From a virus (lineage: Duplodnaviria > Heunggongvirae > Uroviricota > Caudoviricetes): a DNA stretch of 30,042 nucleotides. This document shows, in pieces, positions 6,780 to 26,544 of this stretch. Within the stretch, counting starts at the first letter, position 1, and each line of letters begins with the position of its first letter. The stretch lies in IMG/VR virus record IMGVR_UViG_2711768048_000007. One strand, written 5' to 3'. The notes below the pieces were generated by a model. It did no database searches and had not been told where the DNA came from. It was given only the letters and a program-made list of their open reading frames with translations. The translations under genes were made by a program, and so were the position numbers.

Positions 6780-7082
6780 TCAGGCTGTCGGTAAACCGGC
6801 AAGCACCGACTTCTTCAACAAAAAAGTGACAACCTCAACCGACATGGCAGTGAGATCTGCCGGGTCCATCTCTGCAATTTCCTGTGCAGTCAGTGCCGGA
6901 CTGGAGATGCGGGGGATCACGGTCATCATCGCGTTTACATCCATATCCATAATGGCCTGCAGGCGTGTACCGCGCAGCGCACCGGACTGCGGTTTACGCA
7001 GCACAATTTCGGTGATTTCTGTTTTACCGCGCTTGATGGGGGTATCCAGTTGAATGGTCTTTTCAGTCTGCTTATCGCTCAT
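6780..7082 (-). CDS. E: tail assembly chaperone E; E+E' is made by a -1 frameshift
   Basis: 100-aa ORF directly upstream of T. It contains the slippery heptamer TTTTTTG (minus strand; plus-strand CAAAAAA at 6819..6825) 13 codons before its stop, as in P2 E/E'. Confidence 0.8.
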   Translation of the reverse strand: MSDKQTEKTIQLDTPIKRGKTEITEIVLRKPQSGALRGTRLQAIMDMDVNAMMTVIPRISSPALTAQEIAEMDPADLTAMSVEVVTFLLKKSVLAGLPTA

Positions 7083-7136
7083 TTTGCTGTCCTGTCAATT
7101 GGGTTCTGGCGCGGTATCCCGCGCCGTTCAGATATA

Positions 7137-7652
7137 TCAGAGGCCGAGGGCGTTGCGGTGCGCTTCCATCAGGTCCACACCGTCCACAATTTCCACCATG
7201 TTGATAAGGTCCACTTCATAGAGCACCTCACCATTGATGGTCAGCTTCGCGTAGCTGTTGGTACTGGTCACTTTGGTGGTGTTGCTTTCGCCCGTCTTCC
7301 ACTCGCCGGAATCCACTTCTTTGTGACGTCCACGCACGACAAGCTCCACGGCCTGCACTTCCCCGGTATCGTCACGCTGAATAGAGCCGGTAAAGCGCAG
7401 CTGGATGCCATCCACCGTGGCTTTACCCATCTGTTTAAACAGCAGCAATTCAGTACCACCAATGGAAAATTCTGTGTCCAGCGCACTGTCATCAAGCCCC
7501 AGATCCACATCCACCGCACCCGGCATTCCGCCGCCGCGATACTTCTCATATTTGCGGGTAAATTTCGGCAGCGTCAGCGACTCAACGATCCCCTGCCAGT
7601 TGTTCCCGTCGTTAAACAGGTTCAGGTGTTTTAATTTGCGTGGTAATGCCAT
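7137..7652 (-). CDS. FII: tail tube protein FII
   Basis: 171 aa, immediately downstream of the sheath gene, with an AGGGGA Shine-Dalgarno. Same size and position as P2 FII. Confidence 0.85.
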   Translation of the reverse strand: MALPRKLKHLNLFNDGNNWQGIVESLTLPKFTRKYEKYRGGGMPGAVDVDLGLDDSALDTEFSIGGTELLLFKQMGKATVDGIQLRFTGSIQRDDTGEVQAVELVVRGRHKEVDSGEWKTGESNTTKVTSTNSYAKLTINGEVLYEVDLINMVEIVDGVDLMEAHRNALGL

Positions 7653-7661
7653 GTTGTCCCC

Positions 7662-8765
7662 TTACGCGCTGACCTGGCTGGCGAAATTCACCAGGTACTG
7701 ATCGGTGATGCGCTGACGCAGCATCAGGTTTTCAAGTGGCGGCACTGGCGTGTAGTCGTAGTCGATGGTGAGTTTTCCGGCTTTCAGCGTGTCTTTGTCG
7801 TTCACCGACTCATCCAGCCAGCAATCACCACCAATGAGATAGCCCTGACTGACCAGGCTGCGCATTTTGGCGCGGATACCTTCGATAATGTCGCGGGCCA
7901 GCGACGGGTTAAGCGGTTTATCCACCGCCCACATGTGTGCTTCTGCCATCGTGTCCATCAGCACCTGCGCCGTGCGGGTGTAGTTTTCGAAGGCAAAGAG
8001 CGGGTCATCACTCAGGCAGCGGGAACCCCAGAAGCGGAAACCGTCTTTACGCACAAGCGTGGTGACGTCGTTCTGGTTCAGCAGACCTGCATCGGTTGCC
8101 GGGTCCTGCAGATCCCAGAACACATCTGCAGAAATTCCGGTGACACCGTTCACGCCCACGTTGGACAGGCTTTTGTGCCATCCGGTCTGCTCGTCAATTT
8201 TGGCGCGCAGACCAAGCGCACGGGCGGTGGCATATGCCGTTGCTTCGGCATTCAGCACCGTGTCCCAGCCAGTAAAGTCAGGCCAGATCAGCATCCCTTC
8301 GCGCTGGCTGAAGTTTTCACGGTAAGTGATCGCCTCCTGCACTGTCTTGCAGCCATACGCTGACAGGTAAGCAAATCCACGCAGGCTTTGCGCCACGCTC
8401 AGCAACTCAGTAGCTACCGCCTTGGTGTCGTGGCCTGGCACGCCGAGAATGCGCGGTTTAACGCCGAGCTGTGACTGGGCAGATAACAGGGCTTTCATAC
8501 CTGTTTTTTTACCTTCAGCAGTCACTGCGCCGATGATATTGGTCGTGGTTTCGTCTTCCGTTTCACCCTGCGGCACACGCACAACAATGGTCACGGGTTT
8601 TGCCTGGTCAGCGATGGCATCCAGCGAACGGGCCAGAGTACCTGACTCACCCGCTTTACCGCTGGCAGTCAGCACATCAGTGATCAGCACGGGTTTATTA
8701 AGAGGAAACATTTTTGCATCGGCATCATCGCCCGTGCAGACCATACCCACGATGGCGGTGCTCAT
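7662..8765 (-). CDS. FI: contractile tail sheath protein FI, lacking about 23 N-terminal codons
   Basis: 367 aa beginning [11 protein letters not shown], which corresponds to an internal segment of P2 FI (as I recall its sequence); in this window the upstream reading frame is closed by a stop within nine codons. Confidence 0.8.
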
Positions 8766-9702
8766 TCCCCAGTGCCGCCGCCAGTTCGTTCAGTGTATCC
8801 AGTGCAGCAGGTGCAGAACCCACCATTCCTGCAATCGCCGATTTCACAAAAGCCGTAGTGGCAATCTGTGTATTGTTGACCGACTGCGCCGCCGTGGGGG
8901 CTGTTGGCGTTCCGGTGAGTGCCGGACTCGACAACGGTGCTTTTAGTGCCAGCGCATTGTTAATGGTGGTACTGAAATTCGGATCATTGTTAATGGCTGC
9001 GGCTATTTCTTTCAGCGTGTCCAGCGTGGCTGGCGCACCATTAATAAGGGCCGTCAGTGCCGCCTGTACAAACGCAGTGGTCGCAACCTGCGTGGTATTA
9101 TTCCCCGCCGCTGGCGTTGGCGCTTTGGGGGTTCCGGTAAATGTCGGGCTGGCTTTTGGCGCGTACTGTGAATGCGGGTCCGGTGCGGCAAGATGTTTTG
9201 CCATCTGATCATCCGCGTAAACCTTCAGCTCCAGTGCCTTGTCATCCACATACTTGCGGGTTGCCAGCACTACAGCAGGGTCGATTTTCAGGGTGATATT
9301 GTCCGTGCTGCTGGTAATCAGCACCATGCGCACGGTCTGAGTGCGCCCGCTACCTTCAGCCAGTTGCGGCTTATAGCTTTCCGGGCAGTTGCCCACGGCA
9401 ATCAATGCCCCGGACTCATCAAACAAGCCCACTTCACGTATCCACCAACCGCCCTCGTTTTCAGGGATCACCTGTTCGGCAATAATCTGGCTGCTGTTCT
9501 GCGGGTCGATATAAAGCATATTCAGCGCAGCCCGGCGTTTCTCATTTACCAGTGCCGTCTGCTTTGCGTCCGGCGTTGGCAATACTCCACCGCCATCGCC
9601 CACCGCCATATGGGTAATTTTTAGCGGCACACCGAGCGCGGCGGCGCTGGCAAGTTTCGCCGCGCCAATATCCGTCAGCAGGGTATAAAATTTTGTGCTC
9701 AT
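8725..9702 (-). CDS. H: tail fibre protein H, N-terminal half only (truncated and fused to the FI 5' region)
   Basis: N-terminus [26 protein letters not shown]...MAVGDGGG and two TGTPxAPT...NNTQxATTAFV repeats are typical of P2-type fibre N-termini. The ORF stops after ...[20 protein letters not shown], and that tail is the FI start region read in another frame. No receptor-binding C-terminal domain. Confidence 0.7.
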
Positions 9703-9712
9703 GGATTCACTC

Positions 9713-10186
9713 TCATTGTGTCAATAACATGGACCGCCCCGCCTTCATGCGCGGTGCCACCCGGCTGATGGCCCAGCGGGCGTCACGCCACAAATCACCG
9801 CTTGCTTCCGCCAGTTCCTCGCCCCGCTTCACACCGGACGCCGTGGCGTCATAGTCCTGGTATCGTTCGTTGAGCATGGCGCGTGCCCAGCAGTAAACCG
9901 CGTTGAAATAGTGCTGAATGCGCTCACTTTTGCCGTCCAGCTGTTCCGCCGGAACTTCTGCCAGCGAGGCATACCCCAGCATCTGCTGGCGTCTGCGAAA
10001 CTCATACAGCTCTGCGTTGACCTCCGAAATTGCCGACAGCGCAACCTGCTTTAAACGCGGCTGCGTCACCGTGCCGTCAGTGCGCATCACGCTGCGAAAC
10101 TCCGACAGGTCCACATCAGGCCAGAACGGCGTATTCCTGATGATTTCCGCCTGTTCCGGTGCCTGTTCTGGCGCAACAAACTTCAT
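9713..10186 (-). CDS. L: head completion/stabilisation protein L
   Basis: NTPFWPDVDLSEFRSVMRTDG... has the gpL-like signature. Start set at the ATG with an AGGAGA Shine-Dalgarno (MKFVAPEQ...); the longest ORF begins with GTG at 10249. Confidence 0.75.
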   Translation of the reverse strand: MKFVAPEQAPEQAEIIRNTPFWPDVDLSEFRSVMRTDGTVTQPRLKQVALSAISEVNAELYEFRRRQQMLGYASLAEVPAEQLDGKSERIQHYFNAVYCWARAMLNERYQDYDATASGVKRGEELAEASGDLWRDARWAISRVAPRMKAGRSMLLTQ

Positions 10187-10281
10187 GCTGCTTTCTCCTG
10201 AAATAGAGGGCGGTGGACGGGGTTTTGATGTGGCAGTGCCTTTCGCCACCCCGTGCCGCCCGTGCGCGGGGGCACGTTCTG

Positions 10282-10932
10282 TCAGCGGCTGTCATTGCGC
10301 AGTCTGCGCTCCAGCTGCTGTTTGTCTTTTTTCACGCCACAGCGGGGATCGAGCTGTAACGCATGGTTGAGATGATTAAGGGCGGAAGCCGGGTTGTTTT
10401 CACTCAGGACAGCGCCAATCGCTTTATGCAGACGCGCCCGTGACTGGTCCGGCATATCCAGACCGTCTGTCAGCTCCAGCGTCTGCAGCAACAGATCGGC
10501 ATCAAAGCCGGTGGCGGCAAGCATTGCGCTCTGCGCCGCGTCTGCCATTTCCTCTGCCAGCACGGTCTGCACGTTGCGGTTACCCAGCGGCATCACCCAG
10601 CCATGACGCAGGGCATGACGCCCGATCTCCAGCGCCCCTGCATAATCTCCGGCATCAATGCGCCACAGCATCACGTACATCAGCACGTCATCCTGTTGAG
10701 CGCCTCCGGCAGCCAGAACGCCCTCCGCCCAGGCGGCATATTTCGGCAGCAGCTCCACCTTGATTTCCGCTTTTTTGACCGTGGACTGAACGCCCTTGAG
10801 ACGGCGGCGGTCTTCCGCCAGTTGCAGCAGCATCAGGTCATAGCCCGACGCGTGGCGAACACTGCCACCCTCGCGAGCGGCCTGTTCAGCCTGAACGCGC
10901 AGGCGATGCTGCCGTGCGGGACTCAGGCTCAT
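10282..10932 (-). CDS. M: terminase endonuclease (small) subunit M
   Basis: 216 aa, immediately downstream of the capsid gene, P2 gpM position. Confidence 0.8.
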   Translation of the reverse strand: MSLSPARQHRLRVQAEQAAREGGSVRHASGYDLMLLQLAEDRRRLKGVQSTVKKAEIKVELLPKYAAWAEGVLAAGGAQQDDVLMYVMLWRIDAGDYAGALEIGRHALRHGWVMPLGNRNVQTVLAEEMADAAQSAMLAATGFDADLLLQTLELTDGLDMPDQSRARLHKAIGAVLSENNPASALNHLNHALQLDPRCGVKKDKQQLERRLRNDSR

Positions 10933-10935
10933 GAA

Positions 10936-11994
10936 TTACGCTCCGGTTTCTGCTGCGGCGGCGCTGAAGTCACCAATCTGGATGTTTTCCACCAGTGCAG
11001 CGCAGCGATAGTCCTCAACCACATAGGCTTCGTTAACGGATTCAAAATTTTCAATCCGGTCACGTTTCGGGTTGTCGATAACTGAACGGCGGCGGGTATC
11101 TTCCTGCCAGTAGATGGACAGGTTATCCAGACGGGTGATCAGCAGCGCATTCGGCGGGAAGAACGGCGCACGCACCGCCTGCAGGCCACCCATGCGTTTC
11201 TGACTGATGATCATATCGGCAGCCAGTTTTTCACTGTTTTCCTGCTCTTTGTTGACCAGCGGGAAATACTTGTCAGACAGCAGTTCACGACCGCAAATCA
11301 CCACCAGATCGTCATCGTCCTGGTAGACCACATCGATAAGCTCATTGACGGCATCCATCACTACGGCGTCCAGGTTGGCATATTCGCCACCTTTCCCGAC
11401 TTTCACCGCGCCCGGTGTGGTTTCACCGCCCGTGGTGGTGCTGCCCATGACGTGATCCGGTGCATCCTCACGGATTTTCTGCAGCCAGCCTTTGTTCACA
11501 TCCTGCAGCAGCGGGTTTTCGCTACGGTTGGAGGTTTTCGCACGCTTCACGCCGTTAAAGCCGATCATGATGCGGTCCAGAGCCTGACGTTTCACGATGG
11601 CGTTACGGATACGCACCTGGAAATCCTGAAACTTCGCCCACAGGTCCAGCTTCGCGTAGGTCAGCACCGTGTCAAAGTTGGTCTGTTCGCATTTGTATTC
11701 CACATCGACCATCAGCGTCGGATCGACAGGTTCTCGCTCTTTCGCGGTGGTATCAGTGGTTCCGGCAATGGTGCTGCCAACACCCAGCCCCAGCAACTGA
11801 CCAGACTGCTCAGTCACTGGCGTGACGTTAATCAGCGTCAGGAAAGAGGCGGACTGCTGGATCTGGTCTTCCAGCGTCTGCTGCACGGACGGCTCTACGG
11901 TGAACTTGCTGGACAGTTCTTCAACTGCCACACCGTTCAGACGCGCCAGCTGCTGCAGGTAAGCGTTAAAAGCAAAGCGGGTATTCTTCTTCAT
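10936..11994 (-). CDS. N: major capsid protein N
   Basis: 352 aa, between the scaffold and terminase-small genes; size and position match P2 gpN. Confidence 0.9.
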   Translation of the reverse strand: MKKNTRFAFNAYLQQLARLNGVAVEELSSKFTVEPSVQQTLEDQIQQSASFLTLINVTPVTEQSGQLLGLGVGSTIAGTTDTTAKEREPVDPTLMVDVEYKCEQTNFDTVLTYAKLDLWAKFQDFQVRIRNAIVKRQALDRIMIGFNGVKRAKTSNRSENPLLQDVNKGWLQKIREDAPDHVMGSTTTGGETTPGAVKVGKGGEYANLDAVVMDAVNELIDVVYQDDDDLVVICGRELLSDKYFPLVNKEQENSEKLAADMIISQKRMGGLQAVRAPFFPPNALLITRLDNLSIYWQEDTRRRSVIDNPKRDRIENFESVNEAYVVEDYRCAALVENIQIGDFSAAAAETGA

Positions 11995-12010
11995 CGGGTT
12001 TTGTGCTCCA

Positions 12011-12844
12011 TCAGCAATTGGTCAGAGTGTCAGCGGGGGCGTTACCGCCTGTTGCACGCTGGCGGTAGTCCTGGCGGCTGTCTTCATGACTCAGCTTATT
12101 CACCAGTTCGTTAAAGGCGGTCTGCTGTGCCTGCAGGGCAGTCTCCAGCTCAGACAGACGTTCTTCCTGCTCAGACAGGGATTTTTCGGTGCGTGCGCTC
12201 AGGTTTTGCTGCTCAGTGGCGACCAGCTCCACGGCCTTATGCTCATCAGAGAACCGGGCATCGTCGGACTGCTCTTTTTTGGTAAACAGCGCCGTGACAC
12301 GGGCAAACAGGGACGGTTTGTCCTCCTGGATTTCTTCCAGTTCGATCACCGTTTCCTCTGCGGCGGTAAAGAGATTGGCGGGATTCTGCTTGCGGTTTGC
12401 CAGCGGGTTATGGGCTGCACTGGCGCTGAATGTCAGCATTTCCGTACCCAAACTGGCAGGGTCATCAGTGGCAGCCAGGCCGACCAGGTAGGCTTTGCCC
12501 GTATCAGCGAACTTCGGGCTGACTTCCATAGAGGTGAATAATTTCTGGCCTTTTTTCACCAGTTCCACCAGGGACTCCGTTGGCTCAACGTCGGCATACA
12601 GCGCCATCTTGCCTGCCAGCGGGCCTTCCGTGATTTCTTCAGCAAACAGCGCCGTCACCTTGCCGTAACGGTTAAAGGTGCTGTCCGGGAGATAAGACTT
12701 GATGTGCTCAAGGTTAATCAGCGCGGTATACACCGCCGGGTTGTAGCTGGCTGCCATCTGTTCCAGCCATTCACGCTGGATTTCGCGTCCGTCGGTGGTG
12801 GCACCTTCCACCCCGATGCGAAAACGCTTTGCTTTCACTGTCAT
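12011..12844 (-). CDS. O: capsid scaffolding protein O
   Basis: 277 aa, acidic and coiled-coil rich, first gene of the leftward late operon and divergent from P. Confidence 0.85.
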   Translation of the reverse strand: MTVKAKRFRIGVEGATTDGREIQREWLEQMAASYNPAVYTALINLEHIKSYLPDSTFNRYGKVTALFAEEITEGPLAGKMALYADVEPTESLVELVKKGQKLFTSMEVSPKFADTGKAYLVGLAATDDPASLGTEMLTFSASAAHNPLANRKQNPANLFTAAEETVIELEEIQEDKPSLFARVTALFTKKEQSDDARFSDEHKAVELVATEQQNLSARTEKSLSEQEERLSELETALQAQQTAFNELVNKLSHEDSRQDYRQRATGGNAPADTLTNC

Positions 12845-12986: not shown

Positions 12987-14753
12987 ATGAACACCACACT
13001 GACACCCGCAGATCTCGATCCCCGTCGGCAGGCCATGCTGCTGTACTTTCAGGGATACCGCGTAGCCCGCATTGCTGAAATGCTGGGCGAGAAAGTTGCA
13101 ACCGTTCACAGCTGGAAGAAACGCGACAAGTGGGGTGACTATGGGCCGCTGGATCAGATGCAGCTCACCACCGCCGCACGTTACTGCCAGCTCATTATGA
13201 AGGAGCACAAAGAAGGGAAAGATTTCAAAGAAATTGACCTGCTGGCGCGCCAGTCGGAGCGCCACGCGCGGATCGGCAAGTTTAACAATGGCGGCAACGA
13301 AGCCGACTTAAACCCTAACGTCGCCAACCGCAACAAAGGCCCGCGCCGTCAGCCGGAAAAGAATGTTTTCACCGATGAACAGATAGAGAAACTGGAAGAA
13401 ATCTTCCATTCCTCCATGTTCAACTACCAGCGCCACTGGTGGGAAGCCGGAAAAACCAACCGCATCCGCAACCTGCTGAAGTCACGCCAGATCGGCGCGA
13501 CCTTTTACTTTGCCCGTGAAGCCCTGATTGACGCCCTGCTTACCGGACGTAACCAGATTTTCCTTTCTGCCAGTAAGGCACAGGCTCACGTCTTTAAGCA
13601 GTACATCATCGACTTCGCCAAAGAAGTCGAGGTGGAGCTGAAAGGCGATCCGATGGTGCTTCCTAACGGGGCCACGCTTTACTTCCTCGGCACCAATGCC
13701 CGCACGGCGCAGAGTTACCACGGCAACCTGTATCTGGATGAATATTTCTGGATACCGAAATTCCAGGAGTTGCGCAAAGTGGCTTCCGGTATGGCTATTC
13801 ACAAGAAATGGCGACAAACCTATTTTTCCACGCCATCCAGCCTGACCCACAGTGCTTATCCGTTCTGGTCCGGTGCGCTGTTCAACCGTGGACGCAACAA
13901 AGCTGACAAGGTGGACATCGACCTGTCCCACAGCAATCTGGCCCCCGGCCTACTGTGCGCAGACGGGCAATACCGCCAGATAGTCACCGTGGAAGATGCG
14001 GTGCGCGGCGGCTGTAACCTGTTCGACCTCGACCAGCTGCGCATGGAGTACAGCCCGGACGAATACCAGAACCTGCTGATGTGCGAGTTCGTGGACGATC
14101 TCGCGTCCGTGTTCCCGCTCAGCGAACTGCAGGCGTGCATGGTGGACAGCTGGGAAGTCTGGACCGACTTTCATGCACTGGCCCTGCGCCCGTTTGGCTG
14201 GCGCGAAGTGTGGATCGGTTATGACCCGGCAAAAGGTACGCAGAACGGCGACAGTGCCGGATGCGTGGTGGTGGCTCCGCCAGCCGTGCCGGGCGGTAAG
14301 TTCCGCATTCTTGAGCGTCACCAGTGGCGCGGGATGGACTTCCGCGCCCAGGCTGACGCCATCAAAAAACTGACCGAACAGTATAACGTGACCTATATCG
14401 GTATCGACTCAACCGGCGTCGGTCACGGGGTTTACGAGAACGTGAAAGCGTTTTTTCCTGCCGTCAGGGAGTTTGTCTATAACCCCAACGTTAAAAACGC
14501 CCTGGTACTCAAGGCCTACGACATTATCAGCCACCGCCGTCTGGAGTTTGACGCCGGGCACACCGACATTGCGCAGTCATTTATGGCAATCCGTCGCGCT
14601 ACCACTGCCAGTGGCAACCGCCCGACCTATGAAGCCAGCCGCAGCGAAGAAGCCAGCCATGCCGATCTGGCCTGGGCAACAATGCACGCACTGTTTAACG
14701 AACCGCTGCAGGGCGAGTCCGCCAATACCAGCAATATTGTGGAGATTTTTTGA
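12987..14753 (+). CDS. P: terminase ATPase (large) subunit P
   Basis: 588 aa, divergent from O; its stop overlaps the Q start (TGATG). Matches P2 gpP in size and position. Confidence 0.9.
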   Translation: MNTTLTPADLDPRRQAMLLYFQGYRVARIAEMLGEKVATVHSWKKRDKWGDYGPLDQMQLTTAARYCQLIMKEHKEGKDFKEIDLLARQSERHARIGKFNNGGNEADLNPNVANRNKGPRRQPEKNVFTDEQIEKLEEIFHSSMFNYQRHWWEAGKTNRIRNLLKSRQIGATFYFAREALIDALLTGRNQIFLSASKAQAHVFKQYIIDFAKEVEVELKGDPMVLPNGATLYFLGTNARTAQSYHGNLYLDEYFWIPKFQELRKVASGMAIHKKWRQTYFSTPSSLTHSAYPFWSGALFNRGRNKADKVDIDLSHSNLAPGLLCADGQYRQIVTVEDAVRGGCNLFDLDQLRMEYSPDEYQNLLMCEFVDDLASVFPLSELQACMVDSWEVWTDFHALALRPFGWREVWIGYDPAKGTQNGDSAGCVVVAPPAVPGGKFRILERHQWRGMDFRAQADAIKKLTEQYNVTYIGIDSTGVGHGVYENVKAFFPAVREFVYNPNVKNALVLKAYDIISHRRLEFDAGHTDIAQSFMAIRRATTASGNRPTYEASRSEEASHADLAWATMHALFNEPLQGESANTSNIVEIF

Positions 14754-15787
14754 TGGGAAAGAGTAAGAAGAACCGCGCTGCGTCGACGAAACAGATCCAG
14801 CATAAAAGCCAGACTTCAGCCGAAGCATTCAGCTTCGGTGATCCCGTTCCTGTTCTGGACCGCCGCGAACTGCTGGACTATGTGGAATGCGTACAGATGG
14901 ATCGTTGGTACGAGCCGCCTGTGAGTTTCGACGGACTGGCGCGAACCTTCCGCGCCGCCGTGCATCACAGCTCACCGATTGCAGTGAAGTGCAACATTCT
15001 GACCAGCACCTACATCCCTCACCCGCTGCTCAGCCAGCAGGCTTTTTCGCGTTTTGTACAGGACTATCTGGTTTTTGGTAACGCCTACCTGGAGAAACGC
15101 ACGAACCGCTTCGGTGAAGTTATCGCCCTTGAGCCTGCACTGGCAAAATACACCCGACGCGGGTTAGACCTTGATACCTACTGGTTTGTGCAATACGGCA
15201 TGACTACGCAGCCGTATCAGTTCACGAAAGGCAACATTTTTCATCTGATGGAACCGGACATCAACCAGGAGATCTACGGCCTGCCTGGTTATCTTTCTGC
15301 CATTCCGTCAGCTCTGCTCAACGAGTCCGCCACGCTGTTCCGCCGCAAGTATTACATTAACGGCAGTCATGCAGGCTTCATCATGTACATGACCGATGCA
15401 GCGCAGAACCAGGAGGATGTGAACAACCTCCGCAATGCGATGAAAAGCGCCAAAGGTCCTGGTAACTTCCGTAACCTGTTTATGTACTCGCCTAACGGTA
15501 AAAAGGACGGGCTTCAGATTATCCCGTTGTCAGAAGTGGCGGCGAAGGATGAGTTCCTGAATATCAAGAACGTGAGCCGGGACGACATGATGGCGGCGCA
15601 TCGTGTGCCGCCACAAATGATGGGGATAATGCCTAATAATGTCGGGGGGTTTGGGGATGTGGAGAAGGCCAGTCGCGTATTTGTACGTAATGAATTAACG
15701 CCCTTGCAAAAAAGGCTACAAGAGCTGAACGACTGGCTGGGCGAAGAAGTGATTAAATTTACGCCCTATATTCTTTCAGAAGAATAA
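14753..15787 (+). CDS. Q: portal protein Q
   Basis: 344 aa from the ATG overlapping the P stop, the same length as P2 gpQ. Confidence 0.9.
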   Translation: MGKSKKNRAASTKQIQHKSQTSAEAFSFGDPVPVLDRRELLDYVECVQMDRWYEPPVSFDGLARTFRAAVHHSSPIAVKCNILTSTYIPHPLLSQQAFSRFVQDYLVFGNAYLEKRTNRFGEVIALEPALAKYTRRGLDLDTYWFVQYGMTTQPYQFTKGNIFHLMEPDINQEIYGLPGYLSAIPSALLNESATLFRRKYYINGSHAGFIMYMTDAAQNQEDVNNLRNAMKSAKGPGNFRNLFMYSPNGKKDGLQIIPLSEVAAKDEFLNIKNVSRDDMMAAHRVPPQMMGIMPNNVGGFGDVEKASRVFVRNELTPLQKRLQELNDWLGEEVIKFTPYILSEE

Positions 15788-15795
15788 TTCCGAAC

Positions 15796-16494
15796 TTATT
15801 TGTTTCTTCTTTGTTCACGCCTTGTCTTGGCTTCGATAAGGCGTTGAGGTTCAGTGTAAAGCCGTTCTAAAAAAAGATAGGTAAAATCTTCAAGATCCTC
15901 AGCAGCAGCTTTATCCAAAATACCTTCATGCGCTCCATCATTTCCGTCATCTTTAACGCATTCAGCTAGTTCCCTTAAAGCTTCAGGCAGTAGATGATTA
16001 TCAAATAACCACTCCATTCTTAACCCTAGGCTTCTCCTTATTTTTTGCGCAGGCCCTTGCTCCCCATCAGGAAGAAGTCCTTTTGTGGCATAATCAAGGC
16101 AAAGCCTAAACATGGTTGCTGCTGCATTATAACAACCTATAGCCAAACATTTCGCCCCTTCCTCATATGCACTATTGATATGCTCAGGTAAGAACTCTGG
16201 TGGCTCCTCTACTGCTAAGTCTGCCGGTGATATAGGCCTAACAACCTCTGCAACTTCCTTTAAGCCGAATATTCCACTTTCCCAATTATAGCCATCTAAA
16301 GTTTTATTTTTCGTTAAAGGTCTGCAAAGAAACATTGTCGTTTTATGACACTCTCGGCAAACACAATAGACCTCGTACTCGTATGTTTTACCCCCGCCCA
16401 ATGCATTGTAAACCCTAGTGCAATTCAGCCCATTAACATCAAACGCTATTTTTTGTGATCCACATCGTGGACAGTCATCCACTAACATAACCAT
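15796..16494 (-). CDS. hypothetical cargo protein: N-terminal zinc ribbon plus C-terminal helical domain
   Basis: 232 aa. Cys pattern CPRCG...C...CxCRECH; C-terminal motif KDDGNDGAHEG. Strong GGGAGGAG Shine-Dalgarno. Lower GC than the phage backbone. Lies between portal and cos, convergent with Q (8-bp gap). Confidence 0.65.
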   Translation of the reverse strand: MVMLVDDCPRCGSQKIAFDVNGLNCTRVYNALGGGKTYEYEVYCVCRECHKTTMFLCRPLTKNKTLDGYNWESGIFGLKEVAEVVRPISPADLAVEEPPEFLPEHINSAYEEGAKCLAIGCYNAAATMFRLCLDYATKGLLPDGEQGPAQKIRRSLGLRMEWLFDNHLLPEALRELAECVKDDGNDGAHEGILDKAAAEDLEDFTYLFLERLYTEPQRLIEAKTRREQRRNK

Positions 16495-16783: not shown

Positions 16784-17395
16784 CTACGTAACCACAGTTA
16801 ATGTGTGCATCCTGTCTCGAATTGCATCACACGTCTCATCAAAAAGCTTGGTGATGGTTGTACGATTCAACTCTGCCTCTTTCCAATAATTTTGCCAGTC
16901 AAATTCTGGATCGCCATGCTGAAACGATATTGACTCTGAAAAGCATTCCTTCCGGAAACGGTCCAAGATTATATAAACCTCTGGTGAGATGAACGGTTTG
17001 TTAGACTCAACACTTGTAACAAAAGTATTAAATGCATCGAAAAAAACTTTCAACCTTCTAAATTTTCTCTCTTCAAATGGTTCGTTGGGGTCAAAATGAT
17101 CCAGCGCAGGCCTCAGCTTAAGCACGCTTTCTCTGGTTTCAAACATCGAATTCCAAATGAGACTATATGCTGATAACTCCTTATCAAAATACGCTTTCGT
17201 TACATAAACAGAATTGTCTAACTTAGCCTTTATTCTTTCATTAGTTGCACTCAGTTGTGATTGAAATTCAGCAATATCTTTGTTTAGCCGCGACTTATAT
17301 CTTTCTAAATAAACTTTCCCGATCCAAACAAATATGCCAGATGCAACAAAAGACACCCCACCCAACGAAGCCAGAATTTTAAAGACTAAATCCAT
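16784..17395 (-). CDS. hypothetical cargo protein with an N-terminal transmembrane anchor
   Basis: 203 aa. Hydrophobic helix ILASLGGVSFVASGIFVWIG at the N-terminus, then a soluble domain. Own promoter-like elements (TTGATT, 15 bp, TATAAT at about 17425..17455), a Shine-Dalgarno, and a terminator. AT-rich. Confidence 0.65.
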   Translation of the reverse strand: MDLVFKILASLGGVSFVASGIFVWIGKVYLERYKSRLNKDIAEFQSQLSATNERIKAKLDNSVYVTKAYFDKELSAYSLIWNSMFETRESVLKLRPALDHFDPNEPFEERKFRRLKVFFDAFNTFVTSVESNKPFISPEVYIILDRFRKECFSESISFQHGDPEFDWQNYWKEAELNRTTITKLFDETCDAIRDRMHTLTVVT

Positions 17396-17443
17396 TGCGC
17401 CCCCACCTGCAAAAATAGTATTCCATTATAAGCTAATACATTT

Positions 17444-17704
17444 TTAATCAAACAGGGAATAATTCGCGTCAACCTCATCACTTCTCTGCTCTACCCTGGT
17501 GACTTCCATCAAAAACTCCAGGCCGTCATATAGCGAAACGGGGAATTCCAGCTCAAGCCAGAAGCAGTCTTCATAGGTGCGGCCCAACCAAAAACCTCCG
17601 CCACACTCCTTTGGGCGTTGAAAGAAGACCCAGCCGCCAGGGGTAAACCGTTCCAGCACCTGGCCCCGATAAATAATCTGGTGATTACTGTCTTTTTTAC
17701 CCAT
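17444..17704 (-). CDS. hypothetical protein, last gene of the SOS-controlled operon
   Basis: About 86 aa from the ATG with a GAGGCG Shine-Dalgarno (MGKKDSNHQ...); the longest ORF uses TTG at 17755. Confidence 0.45.
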   Translation of the reverse strand: MGKKDSNHQIIYRGQVLERFTPGGWVFFQRPKECGGGFWLGRTYEDCFWLELEFPVSLYDGLEFLMEVTRVEQRSDEVDANYSLFD

Positions 17705-17777
17705 GGCTAACGCCTCGCTACTCTCGTTGTTCAACCTTGCTGACGTCAGAATCAAGTTCTTACATCAGGAACGTTCC

Positions 17778-18011
17778 TTAGTGCAGCCAGCTGTCGTCTT
17801 CCCAAACCTGCTGCATAATTTCCATCACCCGCTTTTTGTCTTCATCAAGCTTTAAGCCACTCAGCTCAACGCCGTTTGCCGACCCTTTACGGATGCGGAT
17901 AGCTGTCTTGGGATAGATGGGTTGCAGGTTGCGGTAAAGCTCGGACTCCAGAGCGTCCAGGGTAGACTGGCTAATCTTCTGCTCTTTATCGATCATTATT
18001 TCAATGCGCAT
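17778..18011 (-). CDS. dinI: DinI-family protein
   Basis: MRIEIMIDKEQKISQSTLDALESELYRNLQPIYP...VWEDDSWLH resembles E. coli DinI (MRIEVTIAK...ALAGELSRRIQ...TWESADDW). GAGGTGA Shine-Dalgarno. Confidence 0.7.
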   Translation of the reverse strand: MRIEIMIDKEQKISQSTLDALESELYRNLQPIYPKTAIRIRKGSANGVELSGLKLDEDKKRVMEIMQQVWEDDSWLH

Positions 18012-18021
18012 AAAAGTCACC

Positions 18022-18210
18022 TCAGCTGATGACATCCATTGAGCGGTTGTATTCGTGGCTTCTGATTTTTGCCATGAGTTCATCAGTCAATTCAGAAACC
18101 CACTGCAGAGCCAGCCCCTTCTCTTCATCACTACACTCACTAGCCGCTACAAGCTTAAGAAAAAAATCAATGCGCTGGAGCTTCAAAGACTCCAAAAAAT
18201 AGTCCTGCAT
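18022..18210 (-). CDS. small hypothetical protein, first gene after the LexA-box promoter (possible Tum-like antirepressor)
   Basis: 62 aa from the ATG with an AGGAGG Shine-Dalgarno (MQDYFLESLK...). Its stop overlaps the dinI-like Shine-Dalgarno. Confidence 0.5.
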   Translation of the reverse strand: MQDYFLESLKLQRIDFFLKLVAASECSDEEKGLALQWVSELTDELMAKIRSHEYNRSMDVIS

Positions 18211-18238
18211 CTTTCCTCCTATGACACCACAAGCAATA

Positions 18239-18271
18239 CTGTATACATAAACACTGTTTATATTTACAGTA
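18239..18271 (-). promoter_or_regulatory. LexA (SOS) operator(s) overlapping a promoter
   Basis: aCTGTttatatttACAGta at 18253..18271 is a perfect CTGT-N8-ACAG box. An overlapping imperfect box CTGTatacataaACAC lies at 18239..18254. Both are 30-60 bp upstream of the 18210 start codon. Confidence 0.7.
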
Positions 18272-18363
18272 TATAATAATCCTACTGATGTAAAACGTTT
18301 TTTTACGTTCATCAGCCTGATATGCCTGGTATTATTAAGAGCACGAATTGTTAACCCGCGTAA

Positions 18364-20778
18364 TTAATACAGGTTCCGCCACTTATCATCTTCCTGCAAA
18401 CGCTGGTTCCGATAGAAGATACGCAGGCCTGCTCCTGACGGAATACTGCCACCGCGAAGGAGCAAATCGACCTCTTTCTCGCTGCCATCAAATCCTCTGG
18501 ACTTCAGTTCATAGACGAGCTGCTGACGCTGATGCTCTGTAATTCGCTGTTTGTAGTCTTTACGCCGTTTCGGTTTAACCAGGCGTAATCTTGCTGCCAG
18601 TTCCCGGCGCTCTTTTTTGCTCATATTGTGCAGGTAATCGTGCAATTCCTTGTCATCCATGCAGGTAATATCAGTTCTGGTATCCCCATCTGCTGATTTA
18701 TCTTTCTCCTGTTGGTTCAAATTTTCAGCAAGGGGACAGTTATTGCCACGAGTCCAAGGGGCGCAAGCGCCCTGGTCGGCTGCCGCCTCCTGAACGTCAA
18801 CGGCCTTACGAACCATTTTCCACTTCACTGCATGAGTGCAGATCTTGCCCTCTGCAATGGGTGACCAGATGCCATAAATACGAATGCCGTGATCGCCATA
18901 GGCGGTCGGCTCTTCGTTGATTTCATAAGCGGTTCTGATCAGGTGATATTTGCGGGGAACCAGTACGCCGCCCTGCTTCATGATGTAGGTGGCAAAACAA
19001 CCAGCATCAGCAGCAGCCAGGATTGCATCAAGGCGCGGGTTATCCAGTACCGGCGCACCTGCTTTTTTGTCCCCCTGTTGCCTTGCCGCCTGACCAGCCA
19101 GCAATCGCAGTTCACGGTAAGCCTGACGCCCCGGAATGCCAAAGAAGCGGAATTGCTGAACACGATGCAAAGACGCCCAGGCATTAACGTATTCAGCATT
19201 ATCACGCAGGGATTTCCCCGTTTCCTTGCTGATCTCGCCAGCCAGACCACGCCCGTCAATGTTCTTACTGATGTATTTCGCGATGTAGCTTGTTGGCGTA
19301 CCTTTGCGCGGGTTAATCAACTCAGACTTAAAGCGCGGCCCAGTGTTATTGCCCAGCTCCTCGCGGTCTTCACGGATGGCAAACTTACGCAGTAATGCAG
19401 TGATGGCGCGGCGGTCTTTTTTGCGCATAAAACACAACAGGTGCCAGTGAACTGTACCGTCATGATGCGGCTCAGCCACCCGCACGCCATACCAGCGCAA
19501 TCCGGCTTTGTGCATCGCCTTACGAAATGCAGCAAACATGCCGACCAGATAATCACTACTTTGTCTTACCGTCGCATTTGTCCAGGTTGGGTTGGGCCTG
19601 CCGTTATTTAGCGTGGAATGGAAACGTGACGGACAGGTGATGGTGTAGAAAACGGCGCAGTCACCGCGCATTTCCGCGATAAGCTCCAGACCTTTAACAC
19701 AGGCCATCATCTCATTGCGGCGATGCGCAGGGTTGCTGCTGCTGGCGTTTACCACATCCTCCATGTCCAGCGTGTCGCCGTCTTCGTTCACCAGTTCATG
19801 AGAACGGAAAAACTCCAGCGACTTACGGCGCTGCTCACGTTTATGCATCACGGCTTCATAGCTGACATAAGGAGATGCTTTTTTGCTAACCAGGCAGACA
19901 GCGCGCAACTGCTCTTCCCGCCATTCGCAACGCATCTTCCATAATTTCCGATACCACCAGTCGGCGCACAACATACGCGCCAGCGAACCCGGAATGAGTT
20001 CATAGGGCACGGGTTTACGGCGGTTTCTTTTCCGACGGAGTTGCTCAAACGCAGGCGGGATAACATCCAGACGCAGGGTTTCCGCTGCCACCTTTTCCCA
20101 TGTCTTGCGGATTTCTTCTGGCTTAACGTCATCGGTGGCATACAAATCACCACAAGCTGCATCAAGGCACATGCTCATATGCGCAGCGACAAGGGTAGAC
20201 AGGCGCTTCACCTGATCCTGACTCATTTCAGGCAGGATCAGCAGGCCGTCCAGCCCTTCATGGCTTGCCATAAAGCGAAAAGAAGCGGATAGCTGACTGT
20301 CGCGTACATGCTCCAGTCGTTCCAGACATGGCTTAATCGTCTCACGCAAATAGCGGGAATAAGCCTTTGGCCTGCCCAGGCTGCTGAAGTATTCAATACG
20401 TTGCATCAGCGGATTGCTGATATGGGAAGGCTGGGCGTTAACGTCCGCCAGTATGACCATGTCCGGATTAAAGCGCTGCTGCTCATGCGCCAGCTTTGCC
20501 CGGCTAATGAGCTTATCCTGCTCCATTTCGCGTTGGACAGGATCACGGGATTCATTAAAGAAATAACGCTCCCAGACCTGATCACTCAGTGCCTCGCGGC
20601 GCAGTTGTTCCTGCTCGTTATCGGCAGCGTACAGAGTGATCAGGTTTGAAAGCGCAGAAACCGGCGCAACTTCCGCCGGGTCCAGATAAGGGTTAATCGC
20701 CTTTTTCGGGCTGTTCCATGAGAATGCTGCGGCGGCCTCGTTAAAGCCGCTGCAGTTGTTCATATCAGCATGGCTCAT
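18364..20778 (-). CDS. A: replication initiation protein A (rolling-circle endonuclease)
   Basis: 804 aa, the largest early gene, at the P2/186 gpA position; its ATG overlaps the dam stop. Confidence 0.85.
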
Positions 20779-23806: not shown

Positions 23807-24457
23807 TTGTCAAATGGAGAGTTCATCTTGAAGATTAATACAGGTGCAAATACGGGAGGGAGAGAGACCATCAAAAGGCTGATGACAGCCTATGGTTTCA
23901 ACACTCAGATAGCGTTGGTTGAACACCTCGAAGCATCAAAAAGCACCATGGCAAACAGGATGTTACGTGATAGCTTCCCTGCTGACTGGGTTATTCAATG
24001 TGCCCTTGAAACAGGTATTTCTCTTCTTTGGCTGACAACGGGCCAAGGGGAAATGTATCCTCAAACAGAAGAAAAAAATAAGTTCAAAAACGAGAGTTCA
24101 CCTACAGTTCGCCCCCTTTCAAAGATAGTTATCCCATCAGTAAGGCAGGTAACCATTGAGAACGGAACTCTCGAAGAGATGGGGGATGTTTTCCTTGATC
24201 AGACTTTGATACCCGGAAAAGCCGAATATTGTTTGTACGTCAAAGCTAACGACGGCAATTACATTGTTGATACATCAACAAAACAGCTTAGTAACGGAAT
24301 TTGGCTCATAGACATCGACGGTATGAAAAACATCGTCAAAATTGCGCGCATACCTGGAAACAAAATAGTAGTTAACCAAGATGACACGTCATTTGAATGT
24401 TCTGTAGATGATGTGGAAGTCGTAGGACGTGCAGTCAAAGTAATCAAGAACCTCTAA
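23807..24457 (+). CDS. cI: CI-type immunity repressor (start uncertain)
   Basis: HTH region AYGFNTQIALVEHLEASKSTMANRM plus a C-terminal domain. The longest ORF starts with TTG at 23807; a TTG at 23828 has a GGAGAG Shine-Dalgarno and is a likely true start. Confidence 0.75.
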   Translation: MSNGEFILKINTGANTGGRETIKRLMTAYGFNTQIALVEHLEASKSTMANRMLRDSFPADWVIQCALETGISLLWLTTGQGEMYPQTEEKNKFKNESSPTVRPLSKIVIPSVRQVTIENGTLEEMGDVFLDQTLIPGKAEYCLYVKANDGNYIVDTSTKQLSNGIWLIDIDGMKNIVKIARIPGNKIVVNQDDTSFECSVDDVEVVGRAVKVIKNL

Positions 24458-25482: not shown

Positions 25483-26544
25483 ATGTTAAGTGATACTTGT
25501 TATACAGTGATTTATATTGCAGCAATCGTTTTATTAGTATTTATTACAATAGTAAAAAAATGGTACATGCTTGATAAAAGAAATTTATTTCGTCAGAAAT
25601 TATTTTGGATTTCAGTTTTAACACCTTTATTTTCCTTTATCTATTTTGGTTTTTTCACATGGTGGGGAAAAGAACCAGTACTCTCCGCACATGGCTATTC
25701 AAGATTTTACGAAATAAGCAAATTCCCTCTACTATTGCTAGCTAGTGCAGTTCCTTTGGCTTCGATCGTCAACAATATACATCGCACTATACAAACCGAA
25801 GCTCAGATCAACACCGCTGAAACGAAAAATGCAGTCGATAGATATTTAGCACATGAGAAAAACTTTATTGAGAAAACAAAGGAAATATTCGCCTACAATC
25901 TTCAAAGCGCGAGAGACTCAGATGGAAACCTCATTAAATTCAATGGCGAACCAAATATCACTTTGTTTACAGCAGATGAAATTAAAATTTCCAACCCATA
26001 TCTTTTATATACAAAAATATACAACAAATCAACTATAGAGACCACATCTAACTTCACCGCAAACCCTGATTTTTTAGTGCAATTAAAGGAGTACTTAAAC
26101 ACAATTAATAATACTCTGTCGGTTCAACACTCTATAGATGAATATAATCCATTAAGTTACATGATTCGACTTAACACTTTGTCATATAATACAGCCTCGT
26201 TATTAGACCTGATATGTACATCCCCCATATCTCATGTATACTGTTTGATAAAATATGATGGGTATCAATTAAAAACATTTACACTTGAAGAACAAGTATT
26301 CGCCGATATTTTAGAAATATCATATCTTCTATCAAGAAAACTAATTCGTTTGATATATAATGAAGATATACCACATTACGACAACATTTATAATTACTTA
26401 TATGTTGGTAAGTTGAGGTTTAAATTCAGAAAACACGCCAATTCTTTACAAGCATTTTCTTCGCAGGAATGGGCTGATTACGTTTCTGAAGCACTAACTC
26501 TAGTTCCTAACGAAGTTGGCGGCACTTTGGCGGCAGCGCATTAA
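25483..26544 (+). CDS. hypothetical polytopic membrane protein, very AT-rich cargo
   Basis: Three predicted helices (YTVIYIAAIVLLVFITIV, WISVLTPLFSFIYFGFFTWW, LLLLASAVPLASIVNNI) then an Asn/Tyr/Ile-rich domain of about 250 aa. GC content estimated by eye at about 30 percent, against roughly 50 percent for the backbone. Overlaps the int stop; a GTG at 25474 is an alternative start. Confidence 0.65.
   Translation: MLSDTCYTVIYIAAIVLLVFITIVKKWYMLDKRNLFRQKLFWISVLTPLFSFIYFGFFTWWGKEPVLSAHGYSRFYEISKFPLLLLASAVPLASIVNNIHRTIQTEAQINTAETKNAVDRYLAHEKNFIEKTKEIFAYNLQSARDSDGNLIKFNGEPNITLFTADEIKISNPYLLYTKIYNKSTIETTSNFTANPDFLVQLKEYLNTINNTLSVQHSIDEYNPLSYMIRLNTLSYNTASLLDLICTSPISHVYCLIKYDGYQLKTFTLEEQVFADILEISYLLSRKLIRLIYNEDIPHYDNIYNYLYVGKLRFKFRKHANSLQAFSSQEWADYVSEALTLVPNEVGGTLAAAH

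What the first reader, a model, noticed from the sequence alone, without database searches (positions are those of the whole stretch)
17444..18271. SOS-controlled operon: LexA boxes, a small protein, a DinI homologue and a third small gene
A perfect LexA box (CTGT-N8-ACAG, 18254..18269) overlaps a second imperfect one (18239..18254), both over the promoter of a three-gene minus-strand operon with stop codons overlapping the next ribosome-binding sites. In phage 186 the SOS-induced antirepressor Tum is expressed from a LexA-repressed promoter in the equivalent region. The first gene here (62 aa) may be a short antirepressor, and the DinI-like protein could modulate RecA.
Basis: partly seen in the sequence, partly recalled or inferred. 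Interest (0 to 1): 0.5.

Follow-up and report, generated by a model that had tools for sequence, protein, structure and literature searches.

The report
SOS-triggered prophage antirepressor operon (tum–dinI)
This is the known DNA-damage switch of 186/Fels-2-type P2-like prophages: a LexA-repressed promoter drives a 62-residue antirepressor (Tum) and a DinI-like protein; a protein identical to this Tum has already been shown to be required for prophage induction, so the finding is correct but ordinary.

Summary
Two LexA boxes lie exactly 15 bp apart (20-mers 18252-18271 and 18237-18256). They score 23.9 and 17.2 bits; the next best site in the window scores 10.0. Box 1 overlaps the -10 of a promoter built like phage 186 p95. 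Downstream on the minus strand are a 62-aa gene, a DinI-family gene and an 86-aa gene.

The window is a 186/Fels-2-type P2-like prophage, about 97% identical to phage Cartapus. Its CI repressor is 186-type, with no self-cleavage domain found.

The 62-aa protein is 100% identical to the tum gene of E. coli HS prophage DuoHS. Deleting that gene, or making lexA non-inducible, abolishes mitomycin C induction (Nat Microbiol 2025). It is 97% identical to Fels-2 STM2728. Profile searches link it to the 186 Tum N-terminal half and PSP3 TumA. The split tumA/tumB layout is already published.

Two corrections. Only the gene 1/gene 2 junction is tightly coupled. The third gene is variable cargo of unknown function, not a conserved operon member.

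Minor extras:
- Fels-2-type promoters carry a colicin-type double SOS operator.
- Tum stays nearly invariant while CI diverges.
- This prophage copy lacks lysis and baseplate genes.

Verdict: already known; low interest.

The parts
18289..18294 (-). -35 hexamer TTTACA of the tum promoter (p95 equivalent)
   Evidence: Read directly from the sequence. Conserved as TTTACA in all 10 Fels-2-type phages. Same architecture as the annotated 186 p95, TTCACA-18-TACTGT. Assigned by analogy; the consensus scan did not call it.
18266..18271 (-). -10 hexamer TACTGT, 17 nt downstream of the -35; identical to the 186 p95 -10 and forming the left arm of LexA box 1
18252..18271 (.). LexA box 1, TACTGTAAATATAAACAGTG on the minus strand; perfect CTGT-N8-ACAG core at 18254-18269
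   Evidence: Matrix score 23.9 bits, reached by none of 200 random windows. Conserved in every relative examined.
18237..18256 (.). LexA box 2, CAGTGTTTATGTATACAGTA on the minus strand; core GTGT-N8-ACAG at 18239-18254. It shares one base with box 1, so the centres are 15 bp apart (colicin-type double operator).
   Evidence: Matrix score 17.2 bits, reached in 1% of random windows. A second box at exactly 15 bp is present in all 10 Fels-2-type promoters and absent from 186, PSP3 and the two ESSI-2-type phages examined. A cloacin-like bacteriocin promoter has the same geometry.
18022..18210 (-). tum (tumA-type) gene: a 62-aa antirepressor, predicted to be a two-helix hairpin; Shine-Dalgarno AGGAGG at 18220-18215
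   Evidence: 100% identical to the DuoHS tum product ECHS_RS04495. 97% identical to Fels-2 STM2728. Belongs to phrog_698; the 186 Tum N-terminal half hits phrog_698 at E = 5.9e-6, and the window protein hits the PSP3 TumA family phrog_1993 at E = 0.002. AlphaFold2 model pLDDT 90.
17778..18011 (-). dinI-like (tumB-type) gene, 77 aa; its Shine-Dalgarno sequence GAGGTGA (18023-18017) overlaps the tum stop codon
   Evidence: Pfam DinI PF06183, E = 2e-24. 43% identical to residues 71-145 of 186 Tum. The NCBIfam DinI equivalog score of 53.7 is below the cut-off of 111.
17444..17704 (-). Third gene, 86 aa, phrog_2100, function unknown. Variable cargo, probably transcribed by read-through from the tum promoter.
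   Evidence: No Pfam, NCBIfam or PADLOC match. Lies 73 nt after dinI, with no convincing terminator between. Absent at this position in most relatives. Family members sit in the ea region of P22-like phages and in SSU5-type phage-plasmids. AlphaFold2 model pLDDT 82.6, with no significant structural neighbour.
23825..24457 (+). 186-type CI repressor, the presumed target of Tum
   Evidence: Pfam PF07022 (HTH domain) and PF16452 (CI C-terminal domain); no other Pfam match, so no S24 peptidase domain. 32% identical to 186 CI.

Best explanation
This is the SOS operon of a 186/Fels-2-type P2-like prophage, in the split tumA/tumB form.

Proposed mechanism:
1. In an undamaged lysogen, two LexA dimers occupy two overlapping boxes. 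These cover the -10 and the start region of a promoter just downstream of replication gene A, and keep it shut.
2. DNA damage activates RecA, LexA cleaves itself, and the promoter fires.
3. The first product is a 62-residue helical-hairpin protein, Tum. It binds the 186-type CI repressor, which cannot cleave itself, and stops it binding its operators. The early lytic promoter is thereby derepressed.
4. The second product is a DinI-like protein whose translation is coupled to Tum. It probably modulates RecA filaments and so tunes the SOS signal.
5. The 86-aa third gene is accessory cargo of unknown function. It occupies the position that orf97 holds in 186 and is probably expressed by read-through.

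Basis of each step. Shown here: the sequence features, their conservation, and the homology and identity relationships. Taken from the literature for an identical or homologous protein: Tum is required for induction, and 186 Tum sequesters CI. Inferred: LexA occupancy of both boxes, direct Tum-CI contact in this phage, the role of the DinI-like protein, and co-transcription of gene 3.
For: - LexA boxes: they score 23.9 and 17.2 bits against 10.0 for the next best site, and are rarely or never matched in random windows. The double box at 15-bp spacing, with TTTACA-17-TACTGT, is conserved in all 10 Fels-2-type phages despite divergent flanks.
- Position and promoter: the architecture and location match the annotated 186 p95/LexA/tum.
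- Tum: the protein is 100% identical to the DuoHS tum product. Its deletion, and lexA(Ind-), block mitomycin C induction (PMC12055606).
- Published precedent: the split tum is reported for Fels-2 and PSP3, with antirepressor activity in the upstream PSP3 gene (PMC3121763). The PSP3 record annotates tumA and tumB.
- Homology: profile searches link the window protein, PSP3 TumA and the 186 Tum N-terminal half.
- DinI: Pfam E = 2e-24, and 43% identity to the 186 Tum C-terminal half.
- Repressor: CI is 186-type with no cleavage domain found.
- 186 mechanism: Tum sequesters CI after UV (PMC7708051).
- DNA-damage response: the predicted Fels-2 operon STM2726-2728 is listed among operons with at least one gene changed by the mutagen MX (PMC2225428).
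- Distribution: the module is present in 1126 of 5426 complete E. coli genomes.
Against: - No experiment exists on this exact locus.
- Pairwise BLASTP finds no similarity between the 62-aa protein and 186 Tum or PSP3 TumA. Homology rests on profile matches of E = 5.9e-6 and 0.002.
- The DuoHS deletion of tum could also affect the translationally coupled dinI gene. The lexA(Ind-) phenotype does not prove direct LexA binding.
- The window's CI is only 38% identical to DuoHS CI by BLASTP (42% in my local alignment), although Tum is identical. Transferring the Tum-CI interaction to this phage is therefore an inference.
- The generic promoter scan did not call the minus-strand promoter.
- This prophage copy lacks lysis, tail-completion and baseplate genes, so derepression here could not yield virions.
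Confidence: 0.9

Rival explanations
1. The DinI-like protein is the effector of induction, or both proteins are jointly required. On this view the 62-aa protein is only a helper or a leader peptide.
For: The two genes are translationally coupled, so the DuoHS tum deletion could lower DinI expression. In 186 the two halves form one polypeptide.
Against: No self-cleavage domain was found in CI, so modulating RecA cannot inactivate it directly. In PSP3 the antirepressor activity is reported to lie in the upstream gene. ESSI-2-type phages carry the tumA-like gene behind a LexA box with no dinI at all. Non-polar dinI deletions had no effect on induction of Gifsy prophages.
Confidence: 0.06
2. The LexA-like palindromes are chance AT-rich sequences, and the operon is transcribed constitutively or by read-through from gene A.
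For: The minimal 8-base core is expected 0.33 times per window by chance. The promoter scanner did not call a minus-strand promoter. Only a weak hairpin separates gene A from the operon.
Against: The full 20-mer scores lie far above background. Two boxes at exactly 15 bp are conserved across divergent phages. lexA(Ind-) blocks induction of the prophage that carries the identical tum gene and box 1.
Confidence: 0.02
3. In this particular element the operon no longer serves phage induction. The prophage is defective, and the module persists as a domesticated SOS-responsive unit. It might modulate RecA, express cargo genes, or trans-induce other P2-like prophages.
For: Relative to Cartapus, the window lacks about 5.3 kb (genes X to I: lysis, tail completion, baseplate) and about 2.5 kb (tail-fibre C-terminus, fibre assembly, invertase). 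Tum is 97-100% identical across phages whose CI proteins are only 37-62% identical.
Against: The operon, CI, Apl, CII, integrase and gene A are all intact, and the shared genome is about 97% identical to a sequenced phage. The deletions may therefore be recent, and nothing suggests a changed function. This describes a change of context, not a different mechanism.
Confidence: 0.1

Closest known systems
tum of E. coli HS prophage DuoHS (ECHS_RS04495) with its DinI-like neighbour; Phollow study, Nat Microbiol 2025 (PMC12055606)
   Same: The 62-aa protein is 100% identical. Box 1, the -35/-10 elements and the gene order A - tum - dinI are the same. Deleting tum, or lexA(Ind-), abolishes mitomycin C induction.
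   Different: The DinI-like protein is 86% identical. CI is only 38% identical by BLASTP (42% in my local alignment), and Apl is about 22% identical. Box 2 reads GTGG in DuoHS and GTGT here. The third gene differs: 225 aa in DuoHS, 86 aa here.
Salmonella phage Fels-2 STM2728 / STM2726.1 (numbered STM2727 in the LT2 genome) and phage PSP3 tumA / tumB: the split form of tum
   Same: A stop codon separates the antirepressor half from the DinI half. Fels-2 STM2728 is 97% identical to the window protein. The PSP3 record annotates tumA ('UV induction of prophage') and tumB (DinI-like). The split arrangement is described in PMC3121763.
   Different: PSP3 TumA is related only at profile level, and its promoter has a single LexA box. 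Fels-2 has an orf97-like 243-aa gene at the third position.
Coliphage 186 SOS operon (p95 - tum - orf97)
   Same: It lies immediately after gene A. The LexA box overlaps the TACTGT -10. The N-terminal antirepressor module and the C-terminal DinI module are both present. CI is of the same type.
   Different: In 186 the two modules are fused in one 146-aa protein, with internal starts that give DinI-like products. It has a single LexA box, and the third gene is orf97.
Colicin/cloacin-type double SOS operator
   Same: Two LexA boxes share one base, with centres 15 bp apart. The operator of a cloacin-like bacteriocin plasmid, TACTGTATATAAAACCAGTGGTTATATGTACAGTA, is identical to the window operator at 29 of 35 positions and to the Fels-2 operator at 32 of 35. 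Two overlapping boxes binding two LexA dimers are described as characteristic of colicin genes (PMC2994835).
   Different: In the bacteriocin promoter the boxes lie downstream of the -10. Here box 1 contains the -10. The gene under control is an antirepressor, not a toxin.
Gifsy-prophage LexA-controlled dinI - antirepressor (gfoA/gftA) - irsA operons
   Same: A LexA-repressed operon combines a small antirepressor with a DinI homologue. The repressor is not cleaved during induction.
   Different: The gene order is reversed (dinI first). The phages are lambdoid, and the repressor and antirepressor families are different.

Membership tests
186-type SOS (tum) operon | LexA operator overlapping the promoter, located just downstream of replication gene A | tested here: met
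   Boxes score 23.9 and 17.2 bits and cover the -10 and the start region. Gene A (PF05840) ends at 18364. The layout matches the annotated 186 p95.
186-type SOS (tum) operon | First gene product homologous to the antirepressor (N-terminal) part of Tum | tested here: met
   Met at profile level only. The 186 Tum residues 1-70 hit the window family phrog_698 at E = 5.9e-6, co-linearly (positions 6-44). Both proteins hit phrog_8554 (E = 3.4e-12 and 1.1e-8). The window protein hits the PSP3 TumA family phrog_1993 at E = 0.002. Pairwise BLASTP is negative.
186-type SOS (tum) operon | DinI-like module following the antirepressor module | tested here: met
   PF06183, E = 2e-24. 43% identity to 186 Tum residues 71-145.
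186-type SOS (tum) operon | Cognate repressor of the 186 CI type, without a RecA-stimulated self-cleavage domain | tested here: met
   PF07022 and PF16452, with no other Pfam match. 32% identity to 186 CI over the full length.
186-type SOS (tum) operon | Transcription induced by DNA damage through LexA; the product inactivates CI by binding it | not testable with these tools
   Literature only. For the identical protein in DuoHS, deleting tum or lexA(Ind-) blocks induction. For 186, Tum sequesters CI.
Split TumA/TumB arrangement (Fels-2, PSP3) | Stop codon between the antirepressor and DinI halves, giving two translationally coupled ORFs | tested here: met
   TGA at 18024-18022 lies inside the Shine-Dalgarno sequence GAGGTGA, and the ATG is at 18011. 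The organisation is the same in Fels-2 and PSP3.
Colicin-type double SOS operator | Two LexA boxes overlapping by one base (15 bp centre to centre) | tested here: met
   The same geometry and 29 of 35 identical bases are found in a cloacin-like bacteriocin operator.
Colicin-type double SOS operator | Binding of two LexA dimers, giving very tight repression and late induction | not testable with these tools
   Known for colicin operators (PMC2994835). Not measured for any tum promoter in the papers I could read.
DinI (chromosomal equivalog) | Score above the NCBIfam equivalog cut-off for DNA damage-inducible protein I | tested here: not met
   NF007893 scores 53.7 bits against a cut-off of 111. 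The protein is a member of the DinI family (Pfam) but not an equivalog of host DinI.
Tad2 / DUF2829 anti-Thoeris sponge (considered for gene 3) | Pfam DUF2829 match or a Tad2-like fold | tested here: not met

The most novel reading that the evidence does not exclude
One nearly invariant Tum allele may act as a master key for several divergent CI repressors. Tum is 97-100% identical in the window, Cartapus, DuoHS, Fels-2 and Klebsiella phage 4LV2017, while their CI proteins are only 37-62% identical to the window's. The N-terminal DNA-binding domain of CI is 58-71% identical and the C-terminal oligomerisation domain 26-61%. This would fit Tum recognising a conserved block of the N-terminal domain rather than the variable C-terminal domain. 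If so, even a defective prophage like this one, which lacks lysis and baseplate genes, could trans-induce co-resident P2-like prophages of other immunity types. The colicin-type double LexA operator would then set a higher SOS threshold for that decision than the single box of 186 and PSP3.
Probability: 0.3. Interest if true: 0.4.

Novelty: already known. Interest (0 to 1): 0.15.

Why it matters
The finding matters little as a discovery. The module is the textbook alternative to lambda-type repressor cleavage. It occurs in about a fifth of complete E. coli genomes (1126 of 5426). A protein identical to this Tum has been tested genetically.

Its practical value is for annotation. In every record I inspected, the 62-aa gene is labelled 'hypothetical protein', 'unknown' or 'levan regulatory domain protein', or is not annotated at all. 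It should be called tum/tumA.

Two side observations would be cheap to test:
- The double, colicin-like operator is specific to the Fels-2-type branch.
- Tum is conserved while CI diverges.

Both bear on how polylysogens coordinate or stagger prophage induction.

Tried and rejected
- Pairwise BLASTP of the 62-aa protein against 186 Tum and PSP3 TumA gave no alignment. Homology appeared only with PHROG profiles.
- Pfam, NCBIfam and PADLOC gave nothing for the 62-aa protein or for gene 3.
- An exhaustive phmmer search of the 62-aa protein against 1.84 billion cluster representatives found a small family (67 hits). Almost all are stand-alone proteins of about 55-75 aa, and none is an evident fusion to DinI. 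Longer entries are N-terminal over-extensions.
- The structure model of Tum is a two-helix hairpin. The search against viral predicted structures (BFVD) was uninformative, with all E-values above 0.4.
- For gene 3, the Tad2/DUF2829 lead taken from one source name was rejected. Its function remains unknown.
- The generic promoter scan missed the minus-strand promoter. It reported instead a plus-strand look-alike at 18248-18277, which is a by-product of the AT-rich palindrome.
- The terminator scan and RNA folding found no convincing terminator between genes 2 and 3 or after gene 3.
- The primary paper on the Fels-2 tum gene (Bunny et al. 2002, PMC151935) is not held in the library. I rely on the way Lemire et al. 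2011 cite it.

Full report
**What the window is.** The stretch 17300-18400 is 98.9% identical to Escherichia phage Cartapus, a P2-like phage (Peduoviridae, Elveevirus). Whole-window BLAST against Cartapus shows about 97% identity over most of the shared genome. The finding lies just downstream of replication gene A (804 aa, PF05840). It is about 1.4 kb from the cos junction at window 16655/16656.

The lysis-lysogeny switch is of the phage 186 type. It comprises a CI repressor with Pfam domains PF07022 and PF16452, an Apl/Cox-like protein and a CII (CP76) activator. No S24 self-cleavage domain was found in CI. A repressor of this kind needs an antirepressor to respond to DNA damage.

**Check of the observation.** The perfect CTGT-N8-ACAG at 18254-18269 and the one-mismatch box at 18239-18254 are both there, and they share one base. 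The 8-base core alone is not significant: 0.33 matches are expected per window.

I therefore scored 20-mers with a matrix built from 25 E. coli LexA sites. I recalled these sites from memory, so the numbers are approximate.
- Box 1 scores 23.9 bits.
- Box 2 scores 17.2 bits.
- Real sites in the training set score 13.1-27.3 bits.
- The next best site in the window scores 10.0 bits.
- Of 200 random windows, none reached box 1 and 1% reached box 2.

The generic promoter scan did not call a minus-strand promoter. The annotated 186 p95 is TTCACA-18-TACTGT, with the LexA box starting at the -10. The window has TTTACA (18294-18289), a 17-nt spacer and TACTGT (18271-18266), which is the same design.

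The three genes are:
- a 62-aa ORF at 18210-18022, preceded by AGGAGG;
- a 77-aa DinI-family gene at 18011-17778 (PF06183, E = 2e-24);
- an 86-aa gene at 17704-17444.

The stop codon of gene 1 lies inside the ribosome-binding site of gene 2 (TGAGGTGA). Genes 2 and 3 are 73 nt apart. No convincing terminator lies between them.

**Conservation.** I extracted the 120 nt upstream of the homologous gene from 13 other phages and prophages.

The 10 Fels-2-type elements, counting the window, are: the window, Cartapus, DuoHS, Fels-2, SEN8, SopEphi, 500465-1, two Klebsiella phages and a Yersinia phage. All keep TTTACA, a spacer of 16-18 nt and TACTGT. All carry two LexA boxes exactly 15 bp apart. Box 2 scores 10.4-19.5 bits across them, although the flanking sequence diverges.

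Phage 186, PSP3 and the two ESSI-2-type phages examined have a single, stronger box of 23-29 bits.

**Identity of the first gene.**
- The 62-aa protein has no Pfam or NCBIfam family. It belongs to phrog_698, 'unknown function'.
- It is 97% identical to Fels-2 STM2728.
- It is 100% identical to ECHS_RS04495 of E. coli HS.
- The supplement of the Phollow paper names ECHS_RS04495 as the tum gene of prophage DuoHS. A markerless deletion of it, or a lexA(Ind-) allele, abolishes mitomycin C-induced lysis and virion assembly (PMC12055606).
- Lemire et al. [quoted passage not shown] - The PSP3 record annotates these genes as tumA and tumB.

Pairwise BLASTP does not connect the window protein with PSP3 TumA or with the 186 Tum N-terminal half. 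Profiles do:
- 186 Tum residues 1-70 hit phrog_698 at E = 5.9e-6, over the same positions (6-44);
- both proteins hit phrog_8554;
- the window protein hits the PSP3 TumA family at E = 0.002.

The three are therefore remote homologues.

The family is small and essentially always stand-alone. AlphaFold2 predicts a two-helix hairpin with pLDDT 90.

**Second gene.** It is 43% identical to the C-terminal half of 186 Tum. It is a DinI-family member but not an equivalog of host DinI. Its role is inferred. The 186 record describes the equivalent internal-start products as modulating SOS induction. In Gifsy prophages, dinI deletions had no measurable effect on induction.

**Third gene.** It is not a conserved member of the operon.
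- Relatives carry other genes at this position: an orf97-like gene in Fels-2 and 186, a 225-aa gene in DuoHS, and a TIR-domain gene in phage 500465-1. Phage 4LV2017 carries a retron St85 system in the same variable region between the tum module and the portal gene.
- Its family, phrog_2100, also sits in the ea region of P22-like phages and in SSU5-type phage-plasmids.
- The AlphaFold2 model (pLDDT 82.6) is a four-stranded sheet with a C-terminal helix and has no significant structural neighbour.

My best guess is an accessory early gene expressed by read-through. I hold this with low confidence.

**Mechanism.**
1. LexA represses the promoter through the double operator.
2. DNA damage relieves the repression.
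3. Tum binds CI and removes it from its operators, as shown biochemically and kinetically for 186.
4. The coupled DinI-like protein probably tunes RecA activity.

Shown here: the sequence anatomy, its conservation, and identity to a genetically tested tum. Inferred: LexA occupancy of both boxes, direct Tum-CI contact in this phage, the DinI role, and co-transcription of gene 3.

**Two side observations.**

First, the double operator is the colicin type.
- A 42-nt query built on the Fels-2 operator matched about 1,200 plasmids, mostly small mobilizable ones.
- In the one I inspected, the match lies just upstream of a colicin-like tRNase bacteriocin gene. That gene is followed by a cloacin immunity gene and a colicin release lysis gene.
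- The operator there is TACTGTATATAAAACCAGTGGTTATATGTACAGTA. It is identical to the Fels-2 operator at 32 of 35 positions and to the window operator at 29 of 35.
- That fits a gene whose expression commits the cell to lysis.

Second, Tum is 97-100% identical among the window, Cartapus, DuoHS, Fels-2 and Klebsiella phage 4LV2017. Their CI proteins are only 37-62% identical to the window's. The CI N-terminal domain is 58-71% identical and the C-terminal domain 26-61%. This suggests Tum contacts a conserved part of CI, and it allows cross-induction between co-resident prophages. I could not test this.

**State of this copy.** Relative to Cartapus, the window lacks two segments:
- Cartapus 6898-12246, which holds tail gene X, the lysis genes (holin, endolysin, spanin), the tail-completion genes (gpR, gpS) and the baseplate genes (V, W, J, I);
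- Cartapus 13245-15732, which holds the tail-fibre C-terminus, the fibre assembly genes and the invertase.

A 325-aa remnant of the fibre N-terminus remains. The element is therefore probably a defective prophage with an intact regulatory and replication half.

**Verdict.** However, it describes an already published system, for which an identical Tum protein has been tested. Novelty: already known. Interest: 0.15.

Noticed in passing
window 8762-8764 and 9758-9761 (deletion junctions); remnant ORF 8725-9702: Relative to phage Cartapus, the element lacks about 5.3 kb (tail gene X, holin, endolysin, spanin, tail-completion genes, baseplate genes V/W/J/I) and about 2.5 kb (tail-fibre C-terminus, fibre assembly genes, invertase). 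Only a 325-aa N-terminal fibre fragment is left (PF12571). It is probably a defective prophage.
   Followed up: partly
window 15796-16494 (minus strand): A 232-aa DUF4145 protein lies next to the cos site and portal gene. It matches the PADLOC model for the single-gene defence system PD-T7-4 (E = 1.2e-6) and phrog_1305. It is a candidate anti-phage defence gene in the variable region of P2-like phages.
   Followed up: partly
window 16784-17395 (minus strand); TATAAT at 17430-17425: A 203-aa protein with a hydrophobic N-terminus (phrog_26391; no Pfam match above threshold and no PADLOC match) follows gene 3. A perfect TATAAT lies about 30 nt upstream of its start codon, so it may be a separately transcribed cargo gene.
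   Followed up: no
window 23825-24457 compared with L003 (Cartapus) 25817-26449: The CI repressor is mosaic. It is only 57% identical to Cartapus CI, and there is no DNA similarity across window 24031-24346. Yet the adjacent Apl is 100% identical and CII is 95% identical. This looks like an exchange of the immunity module within an otherwise about 97% identical genome.
   Followed up: partly
window, L003, L019, L020, L021, L022: Tum is 97-100% identical across phages whose CI proteins are 37-62% identical to the window's. The CI N-terminal block SKST.A.R..RD.FPA.W is comparatively well conserved (with substitutions in 4LV2017), while the C-terminal domain is not.
   Followed up: partly
L022 2903-3844 (Klebsiella phage 4LV2017): The CI of this relative is 313 aa long and appears to contain two tandem copies of the N-terminal HTH domain.
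   Followed up: no
L014 and L015 (the two ESSI-2-type phages examined): In ESSI2_ev015 a tumA-like gene sits behind a single LexA box with no dinI gene; a divergently oriented regulator gene and the portal gene follow directly. In Cronobacter phage ESSI-2 the tumA-like ORF is not annotated at all.
   Followed up: no
window 18248-18277 (plus strand): A promoter-like site (TAAACA-18-TATAAT, 10 of 12 matches) lies on the opposite strand across the LexA boxes. It would point antisense into the 3' end of gene A. It is probably a by-product of the AT-rich palindrome.
   Followed up: no
window 17778-17767, 17765-17760 and 17749-17740 (minus strand): The 73-nt gap between dinI and gene 3 holds a perfect 12-bp palindrome (AGGAACGTTCCT), an ATG-TAA start-stop pair and a perfect 10-bp palindrome (CTGACGTCAG). 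Their significance is unknown.
   Followed up: no
window 511-1284, 26834-29776 and 29761-30027: Sequences flanking the prophage core differ from Cartapus. A reverse-transcriptase (RVT_1) ORF lies beside ogr, which may be a retron. Beyond the integrase lie an AIDA/pertactin-type autotransporter (980 aa) and an IS integrase-core fragment.
   Followed up: no
L023 1500-1538 (Klebsiella aerogenes plasmid NZ_CP024884) and about 1,200 other plasmids: The phage tum operator is nearly the same sequence as the double SOS operator upstream of colicin/cloacin-type bacteriocin genes on small ColE1-like plasmids.
   Followed up: partly
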